Part shown: one piece after another, positions 27,969 through 40,306 of the stretch
Layout: every line of letters begins with the position of its first letter
Numbering within the stretch: position 1 is the stretch's first letter
Assembly (NCBI GenBank): GCA_002269645.1
Contig: NIVC01001652.1
Span: 1 to 64,000 of the forward strand
Direction of reading: 5' to 3'
Source of the DNA: Macrostomum lignano
Lineage: Eukaryota
Length of the DNA: 64,000 nt
Notes under the pieces: model-generated
Told to the model about the DNA's origin: nothing
What the model saw: only the letters and a program-made list of their open reading frames with translations
Databases searched by the model: none
Translations under genes and position numbers: made by a program

Positions 27969-28007
27969 CTGGCGGGGCGGCGGTCGGGTTGAATATCCTT
28001 GGGGTTG

Positions 28008-28603
28008 CTTTGTTTGGGCATCTATGACTGCTTTGATAGGGTGTCTATGGCTGTTTTGATAGAGTGTCTATGACTGCTTTGATAGGGTGTCTATGGCTGC
28101 TTTGATAGGGTGTCTATGACTGCTTTGATTGGGTGTCCTTGGCTGCATTGATTGGGTGTCTATGGCTGCTTTGATTGGGTGTCCTTGGCTGCTTTGATTG
28201 GGTGTCCTTGGCTGCATTGATTGGGTGTCTATGGCTGCTTTGATTGGGTGTCCTTGGCTGCTTTGATTGGGTGTCTATGGCTGCTTTGATTGGGTGTTTT
28301 GACTGCTTTTTTTAAATGTCCCTGGCTGCTTTGATTGGGTGTCCTTAGCTGCTTTGTTTGGGTGTCTATGGCTGCTTTGATTGGGCGTCTATGGCTGCTT
28401 TGATTGGGTGTCCTTGGCTGCTTTGATTGGGTGTCCTTGGCTGCTTTGATTTGATTGGGTGTCCTTGGCTGCTTTGATTGGGTGTCCTTAGCTGCTTTGA
28501 TTGGGTGTCCTTGGCTGCTTTGATAAGGTGTACTTGGCTGCTTTGATTGGGTGTCTATGGCTGTTTTGTTTGGGTGTCCTTAGCTGCTTTGTTTGGGCAT
28601 CTA
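28008..28603. repeat. 23-bp intronic minisatellite, left part (interrupted by the viral element)
   Basis: Unit GCTGCTTTGATTGGGTGTCYWTG; resumes in the same orientation at 39933. Confidence 0.93.
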
Positions 28604-28639
28604 AGTAGAAGGCATGAGGGGGCTTTTGGGACAAAATTT

Positions 28640-28940
28640 TTCACATCCTCCATAATCCCATTAAATCCATCCATATTATCCCTGACAGAATCAGAAAAAA
28701 GGGGGGTCGCACTCGCTCACAAAACATCCTCCATAATCCACCTAAATCCATCCATATTATCCCTGACAGAATCAGAAAAAAGGGGGGTCGCACTCGCTCA
28801 CAAAACGTCCTCCATAATCCACCTAAATCCATCCATATTATCCCTGACAGAATCATGAAAAAGGGGAGGGGCCGCACTTGCTCCGAAAACTTCGAACATA
28901 ATCCTATTAAATCCATCCATATTATCCCTGACAGAATCAG
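28640..28940. repeat. Subterminal 80-bp tandem repeat, 4 core copies (left end)
   Basis: Core ATCCATCCATATTATCCCTGACAGAATCA recurs at about 80-bp spacing. Confidence 0.9.
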
Positions 28941-29146
28941 AGCAGGTGTCCACTGATACCCGTTATGCTCACTGACACAGACATCATCCACTGACATCCA
29001 CCCATAGCATCTTCGAAACAATCAGAAAATAATCTGCATTCTTATCCCCACATTCAATTCGCAACATGAAACCAGATCCCTAAAACTTTAAATCATCAGC
29101 GCAGGGTCCTTACCCTTTGAAAAAAAGTAATAAATTCTCAATAAAA

Positions 29147-29386
29147 ATGTTTCCAGTTGTCTCTCCAGGTTCTTATTACAAAGCGCACGAGCCTAATTAC
29201 AAGAGTAAGTACCGATGCAAACTTGAATGCAGCGAATACATGAGAAAATATTGGCCCGACGTTCAAATCAATGTCCCTAATATTAATCTAGCTCTCCAAA
29301 GACATTGGTTTCATAAGTATGGAGTAACCTATGTAAAAGATTATGACAGCTACTATAACTTTGCAGAAATCATTAGGCAATTGTGA
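29147..29386 (+). CDS. Small aromatic-rich viral ORF (79 aa), unknown function, left copy
   Basis: ATG in AAAAATG context; stop 4 bp from the convergent penton stop; intact in both arms. Confidence 0.6.
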   Translation: MFPVVSPGSYYKAHEPNYKSKYRCKLECSEYMRKYWPDVQINVPNINLALQRHWFHKYGVTYVKDYDSYYNFAEIIRQL

Positions 29387-29390
29387 TTTC

Positions 29391-30253
29391 TCACATTCTC
29401 TCAATGATTAACGTCAATACAAACTCTTCCCCATTAAAATCAACGCCCATCCCATCTTCAGTCTCAAACTGTAGCACAATCTCGTGAATCTCCTTATTAC
29501 TCAATACAACTCTTTTCACTGGATTTGGTTTCTCTACCACCATCTGTCCTCCAGCTACAGAGTTGGAGATGTTGTACAAAATATTCGTTCGCTTTCCCTT
29601 AAATACCCAATCAAGACTGAGATTAGTTCTGATTAGAATATTCAAACCCTTTACAATGTCTGCTATATTGGGTGCTAAGAACAAACCGCGTACACTTTCC
29701 CGGGCCATGATAACAGCCCCCGTCGCTTGAGTGACAGTCCGCGCTGTGGATTCTGCCTTATAAACTTTCTTCACGAATCCCAATTCCCTATACCAAGTGT
29801 CATCTTTAAACTCAACCTCCGCATCTTTGTGAACTTGCATGACCACTCTCATTACAGTGAGATCATAGGTTATTTAACAGGGAACAGTTTCTTCTCTGGC
29901 TTACTCATATCAGGTGTCTCAAAATGGCCTCTTTTAGTAAAGACGTTTTCTAGAAAGTAATTGTAGGTATCCACACTTTGCGTGCTCACAGGGAATACCA
30001 CAGGTTCTGCTGCTGCACCTTTCCATTTGTAATAAAACTTATTATTTGCTGCCGTCACATTGGGAACGTTTGACCAACCAGTGAAGTCGTTAAGATAGAC
30101 ATGGTAATTAGCACCTGGATCCAGGCGAATCGCCTGCTCTAATTTTTGAATAAATATCCCGTTTGAGTCATTAATTCGCCCAGTTATTGTAATAGGAATG
30201 CTCTCCTTGGAGTGCGAAATAATATTATTTAGTCTTTCAGCAATCGCTTCCAT
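29391..30253 (-). pseudogene. Minor capsid (penton) gene, left copy, broken by a 1-bp deletion near 29872
   Basis: Matches the right copy except AAACTAACC becomes AAATAACC, creating a TAA. Confidence 0.85.
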
Positions 30254-30274
30254 TTTTTTCACATAAAAAAATAT

Positions 30275-38180: not shown

Positions 38181-38201
38181 ATATTTTTTTATGTGAAAAA
38201 A

Positions 38202-39065
38202 ATGGAAGCGATTGCTGAAAGACTAAATAATATTATTTCGCACTCCAAGGAGAGCATTCCTATTACAATAACTGGGCGAATTAATGACTCAAACGGGATA
38301 TTTATTCAAAAATTAGAGCAGGCGATTCGCCTGGATCCAGGTGCTAATTACCATGTCTATCTTAACGACTTCACTGGTTGGTCAAACGTTCCCAATGTGA
38401 CGGCAGCAAATAATAAGTTTTATTACAAATGGAAAGGTGCAGCAGCAGAACCTGTGGTATTCCCTGTGAGCACGCAAAGTGTGGATACCTACAATTACTT
38501 TCTAGAAAACGTCTTTACTAAAAGAGGCCATTTTGAGACACCTGATATGAGTAAGCCAGAGAAGAAACTGTTCCCTGTTAAACTAACCTATGATCTCACT
38601 GTAATGAGAGTGGTCATGCAAGTTCACAAAGATGCGGAGGTTGAGTTTAAAGATGACACTTGGTATAGGGAATTGGGATTCGTGAAGAAAGTTTATAAGG
38701 CAGAATCCACAGCGCGGACTGTCACTCAAGCGACGGGGGCTGTTATCATGGCCCGGGAAAGTGTACGCGGTTTGTTCTTAGCACCCAATATAGCAGACAT
38801 TGTAAAGGGTTTGAATATTCTAATCAGAACTAATCTCAGTCTTGATTGGGTATTTAAGGGAAAGCGAACGAATATTTTGTACAACATCTCCAACTCTGTA
38901 GCTGGAGGACAGATGGTGGTAGAGAAACCAAATCCAGTGAAAAGAGTTGTATTGAGTAATAAGGAGATTCACGAGATTGTGCTACAGTTTGAGACTGAAG
39001 ATGGGATGGGCGTTGATTTTAATGGGGAAGAGTTTGTATTGACGTTAATCATTGAGAGAATGTGA
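38202..39065 (+). CDS. Minor capsid (penton, single jelly-roll), intact right copy
   Basis: YHVYLNDFTGWSNVPNVTAANNKFYY, ELGF, NILYNISNSVAGGQMVVEKP and C-terminal VDFNGEEFVLTLII are typical of Polinton-like pentons. Confidence 0.85.
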   Translation: MEAIAERLNNIISHSKESIPITITGRINDSNGIFIQKLEQAIRLDPGANYHVYLNDFTGWSNVPNVTAANNKFYYKWKGAAAEPVVFPVSTQSVDTYNYFLENVFTKRGHFETPDMSKPEKKLFPVKLTYDLTVMRVVMQVHKDAEVEFKDDTWYRELGFVKKVYKAESTARTVTQATGAVIMARESVRGLFLAPNIADIVKGLNILIRTNLSLDWVFKGKRTNILYNISNSVAGGQMVVEKPNPVKRVVLSNKEIHEIVLQFETEDGMGVDFNGEEFVLTLIIERM

Positions 39066-39069
39066 GAAA

Positions 39070-39309
39070 TCACAATTGCCTAATGATTTCTGCAAAGTTA
39101 TAGTAGCTGTCATAATCTTTTACATAGGTTACTCCATACTTATGAAACCAATGTCTTTGGAGAGCTAGATTAATATTAGGGACATTGATTTGAACGTCGG
39201 GCCAATATTTTCTCATGTATTCGCTGCATTCAAGTTTGCATCGGTACTTACTCTTGTAATTAGGCTCGTGCGCTTTGTAATAAGAACCTGGAGAGACAAC
39301 TGGAAACAT
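39070..39309 (-). CDS. Small 79-aa viral ORF, right copy
   Basis: Identical to 29147-29386. Confidence 0.6.
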   Translation of the reverse strand: MFPVVSPGSYYKAHEPNYKSKYRCKLECSEYMRKYWPDVQINVPNINLALQRHWFHKYGVTYVKDYDSYYNFAEIIRQL

Positions 39310-39516
39310 TTTTATTGAGAATTTATTACTTTTTTTCAAAGGGTAAGGACCCTGCGCTGATGATTTAAAGTTTTAGGGATCTGGTTTCATGTTGCGAATT
39401 GAATGTGGGGATAAGAATGCAGATTATTTTCTGATTGTTTCGAAGATGCTATGGGTGGATGTCAGTGGATGATGTCTGTGTCAGTGAGCATAACGGGTAT
39501 CAGTGGACACCTGCTC

Positions 39517-39895
39517 TGATTCTGTCAGGGATAATATGGATGGATTTAATAGGATTATGTTCGAAGTTTTCGGAGCAAGTGCGGCCCCTCCCTTTTTCAT
39601 GATTCTGTCAGGGATAATATGGATGGATTTAGGTGGATTATGGAGGACGTTTTGTGAGCGAGTGCGACCCCCCTTTTTTCTGATTCTGTCAGGGATAATA
39701 TGGATGGATTTAGGTGGATTATGGAGGATGTTTTGTGAGCGAGTGCGACCCCCCTTTTTTCTGATTCTGTCAGGGATAATATGGATGGATTTAGGTGGAT
39801 TATGGAGGATGTTTTGTGAGCGAGTGCGACCCCCTTTTTTTCTGATTCTGTCAGGGATAATATGGATGGATTTAATGGGATTATGGAGGATGTGA
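39517..39895. repeat. Subterminal 80-bp tandem repeat, 5 core copies (right end)
   Basis: TGATTCTGTCAGGGATAATATGGATGGAT occurs five times. Confidence 0.9.
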
Positions 39896-39932
39896 AAAAT
39901 TTTGTCCCAAAAGCCCCCTCATGCCTTCTACT

Positions 39933-40175
39933 CATCTATGACTGCTTTGATGGGGTGTCTATGGCTGCTTTGATTGGGTGTCTATGACTGCTTTGATTGG
40001 GTGTCCTTGGCTGCTTTGATTGGGTGTCTATGGCTGCTTTGATTGGGTGTTTTGACTGCTTTTTTTAAATGTCCCTGGCTGCTTTGATTGGGTGTCCTTA
40101 GCTGCTTTGATTGGGCGTCTATGGCTGCTTTGATTGGGTGTCCTTGGCTGCTTTGTTTGGGTGTCCTTGGCTGGG
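39933..40175. repeat. 23-bp intronic minisatellite, right part
   Basis: Same unit and orientation as 28008-28603. Confidence 0.92.
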
Positions 40176-40306
40176 TTAATTAGGTGTCCATTCTAGACTT
40201 AGAGTGGACGACCCTCATATGAAGTACAAGTGAGCCCCAGTCTCGCTCACCTTGATCATTCGAACTCCGCTTTGGTGACAGGAAGCCAGGGTCAGGGCAA
40301 GCATAC

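What the first reader, a model, noticed from the sequence alone, without database searches (positions are those of the whole stretch)
27969..40306. The viral palindrome lies in a host intron, so read-through would give a ~4.7-kb dsRNA hairpin of capsid genes
Seen: phase-compatible exons at 42696-42879, 40742-40879, 40307-40361 and 27762-27968 place the whole element in the last intron of a minus-strand host gene. Inference: the pre-mRNA would fold into a near-perfect multi-kb stem covering MCP, penton and core ORFs. This is an ideal Dicer/ADAR substrate, so the locus could supply small RNAs against active Polinton relatives (EVE-based immunity) or disturb splicing of the host gene.
Basis: inference. 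Interest (0 to 1): 0.72.

Follow-up and report, generated by a model that had tools for sequence, protein, structure and literature searches.

The report
Mirror-image Polinton in a flatworm intron
A virus-like jumping element in a flatworm intron has lost its replication genes and carries its capsid genes twice, as a 4.7-kb mirror image that likely arose as a copying error of a kind seen at two other sites in the genome; the host's RNA would fold it into a long double strand, but no silencing RNA from it has been shown.

Summary
The palindrome and its intronic position are real. One exon boundary is wrong, and the immunity role is unshown. The element (28604-39932; AG..CT ends, 6-bp target duplication) is a defective Polinton whose right half (protease, polymerase, integrase, PLA2) is replaced by an inverted copy of its left 4.7 kb, joined at a ~10-nt microhomology. 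The host is Macrostomum lignano. The insertion sits on two haplotypes; a third has an empty 0.93-kb intron. The true donor is 40251, not 40307. RNA contigs from 4 of 4 studies are spliced at exon 4. Two other insertions in the same family have ~5-kb arms with their own target duplications: C633 (left end doubled) and C975 (right end doubled, no capsid genes). Arms of 0.9-1.75 kb also occur. Giant arms are therefore a recurring by-product of this family's copying or repair, not evidence of host selection. A dsRNA hairpin is likely if the intron is read through; 34-77% of arm 21-mers match each of 22 sister copies. No small-RNA data could be examined, no A-to-G excess was seen, and element RNA could not be assigned to this locus. 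The scan's notes hold other Polinton oddities in this genome but not this one.

The parts
28604..39932 (.). Defective palindromic Polinton/Maverick, 11,329 bp, left end present at both ends
28598..28603 (+). Left target-site duplication CATCTA
   Evidence: same in C276 and C3945; the empty allele C280 has no element
39933..39938 (+). Right target-site duplication CATCTA
28604..33347 (+). Left arm (4744 bp): ordinary ~0.8-kb TIR with 81-bp repeats, then penton, capsid, three small ORFs and the 21-bp array
35107..39932 (-). Right arm (4826 bp), inverted copy of the left arm with one more 81-bp unit; it replaces protease, pPolB, integrase and PLA2 of the parent
35107..35116 (+). Novel junction: parent TGTCAATTTT fused to the inverted 21-bp array (TGTCATTTT); found only in C1652, C276 and C3945
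33228..33352 (+). 21-bp tandem array (mirror at 35107-35227); the C633 arm ends within about 50 bp of the same array
33400..34200 (+). A32-like packaging ATPase, 266 aa (unique core)
   Evidence: Pfam PF04665 E 4.9e-6, over cut-off
34217..35023 (+). ORF268, no credible family match (unique core)
30275..31561 (-). Major capsid protein, left copy, 428 aa
36894..38180 (+). Major capsid protein, right copy, 428 aa
29391..30253 (-). Penton, left copy; frame broken near 29870 in this assembly (one-base indels are scattered over all three contigs, so possibly assembly noise)
38202..39065 (+). Penton, right copy, 287 aa
   Evidence: mavirus, Sputnik and adenovirus pentons
31592..33184 (+). Three small ORFs (227, 109, 129 aa) of unknown function; mirror at 35271-36863 (-)
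29147..29386 (+). 79-aa ORF inside the ordinary TIR; mirror at 39070-39309 (-)
42696..42778 (-). Host exon 1, likely coding part (ATG at 42778)
40742..40879 (-). Host exon 2
40251..40361 (-). Host exon 3, corrected donor; one base shorter in the window than in C280 and C276
27762..27968 (-). Host exon 4, coding part; RNA contigs extend 3' to 27486-27623
27969..40250 (-). Last intron: 23-bp minisatellite (28006-28597, 39942-40189) interrupted by the element

Best explanation
This is a defective Polinton whose right half is replaced by a mirror copy of its left 4.7 kb, likely through a template switch at a short microhomology, and it sits in a spliced host intron where it would form a long RNA hairpin as a likely incidental by-product. 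SHOWN: the anatomy, the target duplication, the parent family, the microhomology junction, the empty allele, and a series of independent copies with arms of 0.9, 1.6, 1.75, 4.7, 4.85 and 5.5 kb copied from either end. INFERRED: a broken or stalled end in the right half paired through the TIRs (panhandle), switched to the left half at the 21-bp array and copied out to the terminus. This happened either during protein-primed replication, followed by integration with integrase from an intact copy, or as repair after integration. INFERRED: the host intron is spliced out with the element in it, and any duplex is most likely edited or degraded, or feeds the existing small-RNA pool as one minor source among about 200 copies.
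For: The parent copies carry protease, pPolB (PF03175), rve integrase, pX-like and PLA2 ORFs to the right of ORF268 and TIRs of about 0.8 kb (C2787). The junction falls at TGTCAATTTT/TGTCATTTT. It occurs in 3 places in the genome, all this one insertion, so this form has not multiplied. C633: arms 11 substitutions in 4825 but 90% to the window's arm, own duplication CCACTG, and a two-step junction pPolB > capsid 5' end > ATPase start. C975: right end doubled, arms 99.2% over 5363, duplication CCTATA, unrelated flanks, no capsid genes. C1584 (1.75 kb, TCGATT) and C869 (1.6 kb). One 0.87-0.9-kb extension with the same breakpoint stands at 4 separate sites (C875, C1076, C1203, C27=C622), which suggests that extended ends can be passed on by transposition. 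The host gene is spliced in 4 of 4 runs.
Against: Origin during free replication and origin by repair after integration are not told apart by any search. No listed short-read contig bridges the junction with 31 letters on each side (the table showed 32 rows and left out 1167), so the junction rests on three assembly contigs. The arms differ between the two insertion haplotypes ten times less than the flanks (3-6 of 4400 against 67 of 5886; core 12 of 1729). A neutral fossil does not predict that; it points to ongoing conversion, to selection, or to collapsed consensus. A ~20-nt, high-complexity small-RNA class that the authors do not assign exists in this species (PMC4604429, section 6), so an siRNA role is open.
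Confidence: 0.65

Rival explanations
1. The locus is a working hairpin-RNA source: host read-through yields a 4.7-kb duplex that Dicer-2 (with RdRP) turns into siRNAs that silence capsid genes of sister Polintons in trans.
For: Spliced, expressed host gene, with an insertion-haplotype marker in RNA contigs of 2 of 4 runs. Near-perfect duplex. Median 46% (34-77%) of arm 21-mers match each of 22 fetched copies exactly. Dicer-2 and RdRPs reported (PMC5594548, passages). Unassigned ~20-nt class. Precedent in tomato: intronic inverted-repeat pararetrovirus insertions yield siRNAs (PMC9868043, abstract and section 7). Arms unusually conserved between haplotypes.
Against: No small-RNA evidence. Family transcripts are present in probable RNA runs, including parent-type junction and capsid contigs. 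Ten AATAAA on the host strand. Giant arms recur without capsid genes (C975). One of three haplotypes lacks the insertion. Transposon control in this species is shown to run through piRNAs (PMC4604429, passages).
Confidence: 0.17
2. The insertion mainly harms the host allele: read-through stops at element poly(A) signals or cryptic splice sites, no full hairpin forms, and the empty haplotype supplies the mRNA.
For: Ten AATAAA, 4 acceptor-like and 1 strong donor-like motif on the host strand. The window's own haplotype lacks a base in exon 3, and its private 27736A was seen in none of 4 RNA runs.
Against: 27714T of insertion haplotype C3945 is in X7 and X9. In X5 a non-C280 contig (depth 7.5) stands beside a C280-type one (3.6). 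Contigs collapse variants and strains differ, so neither side is firm.
Confidence: 0.12
3. The palindrome is an assembly artefact of a ~200-copy repeat family.
For: Contigs C276 and C3945 end in or just beyond the element. The core points the opposite way in them. The arms are suspiciously alike across haplotypes. No bridging short-read contig is listed.
Against: The same chimeric junction stands in three contigs of two haplotypes, with haplotype-specific bases beside it. Matching target duplications and different flanks. The other palindromes have arms that match each other at over 99% but the window at about 90%, with their own duplications and unrelated or same-direction flanks.
Confidence: 0.06

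Closest known systems
Polinton/Maverick elements, alpha-adintovirus type (PMC8097293 and PMC8502044, passages)
   Same: 6-bp target duplication, AG-type ends, capsid, penton and ATPase. The parent has pfam03175 pPolB, rve integrase, adenain-like protease, PLA2 and pX-like ORFs.
   Different: TIRs of 134 intact vertebrate elements are 46-1447 bp; here the arms are 4.7-4.8 kb and hold whole genes. Polymerase, integrase and protease are gone.
Galileo transposon TIR extension in Drosophila mojavensis (PMC3573991, abstract and section 7)
   Same: TIRs lengthen by recruiting internal sequence from either end; the longest are in non-autonomous copies.
   Different: A P-superfamily cut-and-paste element with TIRs up to about 1.26 kb and no viral genes.
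Tomato intronic inverted-repeat pararetrovirus loci (TSAs) (PMC9868043, abstract and section 7)
   Same: An endogenous viral inverted repeat inside a spliced intron of an expressed gene, proposed as a stem-loop siRNA source.
   Different: There the siRNAs were mapped and tested; here none are shown. Plant versus animal, pararetrovirus versus Polinton.
Copy-back defective viral genomes; end-to-end copying in poxvirus ITRs and adenovirus panhandles
   Same: One end of a linear genome is copied onto the other with loss of internal genes. PMC9578705 (passage) states that sequence within a poxvirus ITR is duplicated to the other end by replication. Copy-back genomes and adenovirus panhandle repair are recalled, with review titles seen only as search listings.
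   Different: Here the product is fixed in a chromosome with a target duplication; no free molecule is shown.

Membership tests
Polinton/Maverick (element in the window) | Terminal inverted repeats with AG-type ends | tested here: met
Polinton/Maverick (element in the window) | 6-bp target-site duplication | tested here: met
   CATCTA both sides; empty allele C280
Polinton/Maverick (element in the window) | Double-jelly-roll capsid, penton, packaging ATPase | tested here: met
   the capsid match is below Pfam's cut-off
Autonomous Polinton | Protein-primed PolB and rve integrase | tested here: not met
   absent from the ORFs of 28604-39932; present in sister copies. It is a non-autonomous derivative.
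Alpha adintovirus-type (parent family) | pfam03175 PolB and PLA2-like gene | tested here: met
   PF03175 E 1.9e-9 (C422) and PF08398 E 1.3e-13 (C221); definition from PMC8502044 passages. The OTU domain was not tested.
Hairpin-RNA / endo-siRNA locus | Long inverted repeat within one transcription unit | tested here: inconclusive
   DNA arrangement met; exon 4 spliced in RNA; read-through of both arms from this allele not shown
Hairpin-RNA / endo-siRNA locus | Phased 20-22-nt small RNAs from the stem, Dicer dependent | not testable with these tools
   only contigs, no raw small-RNA reads, were offered
ADAR hyper-edited dsRNA | Excess of A-to-G changes in RNA over DNA | tested here: inconclusive
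   X1 and X9 show A>G 5 and 5, T>C 6 and 2; likely DNA runs X15 and X18 show A>G 7 and 5, T>C 4 and 5. Contigs at 96% likeness would lose heavily edited reads.
GADD45 family (host gene) | L7Ae/Gadd45 domain PF01248 | tested here: inconclusive
   The resemblance is recalled from memory. Single exons gave no relevant Pfam, PDB or homologue hit, and the genome-wide PF01248 search did not list this locus.

The most novel reading that the evidence does not exclude
Animal Polintons regularly throw off copy-back genomes with ~5-kb gene-bearing arms. When one lands in an expressed intron, as here, it becomes a heritable hairpin-RNA locus that silences the capsid module of about 200 sister elements: the virus's own replication error builds the host's antiviral RNA gene, and arm-to-arm conversion keeps the stem perfect.
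Probability: 0.15. Interest if true: 0.82.

Novelty: new variant of a known kind. Interest (0 to 1): 0.5.

Why it matters
In my recollection, Polinton replication has not been observed directly in animals. A graded series of end-to-end copy products (0.9 to 5.5 kb, from either end, each with its own target duplication and a readable junction) is a genomic record that can be tested against the panhandle model. These arms are three to four times the longest TIR among 134 intact vertebrate Mavericks (PMC8097293). The locus is also a natural experiment: a 4.7-kb perfect stem in an expressed intron, present on two haplotypes and absent from a third, in a lab animal with Dicer-2, RdRP, PIWI and ADAR genes. 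One small-RNA mapping would tell whether animals, like tomato, turn rearranged viral insertions into hairpin-RNA immunity.

Tried and rejected
(2) The UniRef gene model P0001 fuses otopetrin to exon 4; it is treated as an annotation artefact and used only to name the species. (3) Locus-specific element RNA: X1 holds contigs identical to the core at 34733-35093, but that stretch is matched by C221 or by a marker found in 21 places, and the ACTAG motif in 27 places, so it cannot be assigned. (4) No holder is on record as RNA ('no RNA holder listed'); the RNA label of X1, X5, X7 and X9 is a guess. X1 had no cover at 27060-27187, a short silent control. (5) 'Most close inverted pairs are giant palindromes': rejected. 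Of 11 pairs among the first 100 of 205 penton matches, 2 were giant (C276 = this locus, C633), 5 had 0.8-0.9-kb ends, 2 had 1.6-1.75 kb, 1 was nested (C1098) and 1 was fetched only in part (C716). (6) 'Copying runs only left to right': rejected by C975; C957 is nested and complex. (7) 'The window's form is an amplified subfamily': rejected. (8) Host protein identity was not established. (9) Capsid: no PDB or phage sequence match. (10) Literature: searches (listings only) showed no title describing multi-kb palindromic Polintons or Macrostomum Polintons; subscription papers and Repbase are not covered. The supplements of PMC4604429 (piRNA clusters and transcripts, Tables 3-5) were not opened and may bear on whether this locus yields piRNAs.
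Full report
OBSERVATION. A self-BLAST of the window gives one long inverted repeat, 28643-33347 against 39812-35107, 99.85% over 4707 columns. The sequence extends it to termini AGTAG.. at 28604 and ..CTACT at 39932, flanked by CATCTA on both sides. Outside the terminal 81-bp repeats the arms differ by 1 substitution and 2 one-base gaps in 4402. Each arm holds a 428-aa capsid protein (PF21738 E 8e-5, under the cut-off; Atlas 0.97, weak recognition), a 287-aa penton (model pLDDT 75; Foldseek E 8e-11 to mavirus penton) and four small ORFs with no credible family. 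The 1.76-kb core holds an A32 ATPase and ORF268.

HOST GENE. Exon 4 is identical to part of a Macrostomum lignano UniRef entry whose model is fused to the upstream otopetrin. Four contigs hold the locus. C280 is empty, with a ~930-bp minisatellite intron against 12,282 bp here. C276 and C3945 carry the element and share all 12 core substitutions against the window, so they are a second haplotype. Three copies per locus fit the three subgenomes described for the species (PMC10733133, passages); I cannot say which is which. The window lacks one base that C280 and C276 both have. Contigs of 4 of 4 probable RNA runs from four studies cover exon 4, stop at 27970 and run on for 121-406 letters unlike the genome. 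The corrected protein resembles GADD45 by my recall only; no call confirmed it.

PARENT FAMILY. A penton 27-mer matches exactly 205 times, a capsid 29-mer 185 times and a PLA2 30-mer 207 times in the genome (haplotype copies count separately). Of the first 20 copies fetched, 17 showed no long inverted arm in the stretches fetched (several contigs end early). In the 13 right-hand stretches read for ORFs, the element continues after ORF268 into the parent's right half. Sample ORFs matched protease, pPolB, pX-like, rve integrase and PLA2 families. This is an alpha-adintovirus-type Polinton by the features in PMC8502044 (passages). C2787 shows the ordinary form: 14.6 kb, ~0.8-kb TIRs, 6-bp duplication. 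The window's element is that left half plus its mirror image. The switch lies where the parent reads TGTCAATTTT and the inverted 21-bp array reads TGTCATTTT. The junction occurs in three places, all this insertion.

RECURRENCE. C633 is a separate insertion with the left end doubled: arms 11 substitutions in 4825, 90% to the window, duplication CCACTG, and a junction that jumps from pPolB to the capsid 5' end to the ATPase start beside the same array. C975 has the right end doubled: arms 99.2% over 5363, duplication CCTATA, unrelated flanks, no capsid genes. C1584 (1.75 kb) and C869 (1.6 kb) are intermediate, and one 0.87-0.9-kb extension with a shared breakpoint stands at four sites. Each probe listed only its first 100 matches, so three giant cases is a lower bound. 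Intact vertebrate Mavericks have TIRs of 46-1447 bp (PMC8097293, passages). Galileo shows the same recruitment of inner sequence into TIRs on a smaller scale (PMC3573991, section 7).

HOW IT LIKELY AROSE. Shown: structure, junction, series. Inferred: pairing of the two TIRs brings the ends together (the panhandle of protein-primed replication, recalled), and a broken or stalled strand switches template at the microhomology and copies out to the far end. Integration would then need integrase from an intact copy; repair after integration would leave the same marks. The four-site extension suggests that at least some extended ends pass through transposition. Poxvirus ITRs copy end to end in a similar way (PMC9578705, passage).

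THE HAIRPIN, FOR. The innermost 1000 bases of the arms pair at 999 positions (-1995 kcal/mol). 27714T, present in C3945 and absent from C280, is in the X7 and X9 contigs, and X5 shows a non-C280 contig beside a C280-type one, so insertion-type haplotypes seem to reach exon 4. Contigs do not hold phase and strains may differ. The genome has ADAR-domain matches (16). The species has Dicer-2 and RdRP genes (PMC5594548, passages) and an unassigned ~20-nt class beside miRNAs and piRNAs (PMC4604429, section 6). Planarian ADARs suppress dsRNA responses (PMC8797187, abstract). Arm 21-mers match 34-77% (median 46%) of each of 22 fetched copies. Tomato offers a direct precedent (PMC9868043, abstract and section 7).

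THE HAIRPIN, AGAINST. No small-RNA reads could be examined. On 34300-37000, probable RNA runs show family contigs, including a parent-type junction in X9, with no A-to-G excess over likely DNA runs. Contigs identical to this copy's core cannot be assigned to it. Ten AATAAA and several splice-like motifs lie on the host strand. The window's own 27736A was in none of 4 runs. Giant arms arise without capsid genes (C975), and one haplotype lacks the insertion. The element's small-ORF blocks point into the core from both arms, so its own transcription could give dsRNA without the host and could cover the core too (inference).

UNEXPLAINED. Between the two insertion haplotypes the arms differ at 3-6 of 4400 sites, the core at 12 of 1729 and the flanks at 67 of 5886. 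With 5 taken for the arms, Fisher p is 2e-11 against the flanks and 3e-4 against the core, or 0.046 if six clustered core changes count once. The core is also inverted between them. Arm conversion with flip-flop and collapsed consensus both fit. No listed short-read contig bridges the junction (table cut), so artefact keeps a small probability.

NOVELTY AND VERDICT. Five literature searches (listings only) showed no description of multi-kb palindromic Polintons. PMC11414722 (passages) treats Polinton TIR-driven rearrangements of a host gene, a different case. The scan's notes list other Polinton features in this genome but not this one. Observation partly confirmed; interpretation partly supported; new variant of a known kind; interest 0.5. 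The firmest new point is the recurring series of end-to-end copy products. The immunity reading is testable with existing kinds of data, and I put it at about 0.15.

Noticed in passing
G000:C276 and C3945 versus window 33348-35106: Relative to the host flanks, the core points the opposite way on the second haplotype: either a flip through arm recombination or an assembly choice.
   Followed up: partly
window arms versus C276/C3945: Between haplotypes the arms differ at 3-6 of 4400 sites, the core at 12 of 1729 (6 of them clustered in an 84-bp repeat) and the flanks at 67 of 5886.
   Followed up: partly
G000:C975:122373-133900 (L106, L107): Palindrome with the right end doubled: ~5.5-kb arms holding PLA2, integrase and part of pPolB, a ~0.5-kb centre, duplication CCTATA.
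   Followed up: partly
G000:C633:134497-147607 (L045, L046): Second palindrome with the left end doubled, with a two-step junction through a ~210-bp reversed piece of the capsid 5' end.
   Followed up: partly
G000:C27:370296 (L103) and C622:24524 (L100): Right after the extended-TIR breakpoint stands GTTAGGGTTAGG, like the telomere repeat (recalled); the two contigs share one insertion site.
   Followed up: no
G000:C1098:29333, 34390; C957; C958; C2829: Nested and tandem Polinton copies; in C1098 two termini sit directly in the 21-bp array of another copy.
   Followed up: no
window 40251-40361: One-base deletion in host exon 3 in the window only: assembly error or null allele.
   Followed up: partly
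window 43326-49345 (-): Otopetrin gene ending about 550 bp upstream of the host ATG, with an acceptor-like TTTTGTCAG near 43090; an operon-like or trans-spliced arrangement is possible (inference).
   Followed up: no
window 10-1223 (-), 22926-23582 (-), 62511-62975 (+), 63128-63652 (+): GPCR, C2H2 zinc-finger, PF13843 transposase and ligand-gated ion-channel fragments.
   Followed up: no
window 27280-27560: Short dispersed repeat in or beyond the host 3' region, with very deep cover in all four probable RNA runs.
   Followed up: no
G000, PF03175 search: 119 pPolB matches from 91 of 974 candidates scored, several distinct families; the genome is very rich in Polintons.
   Followed up: no
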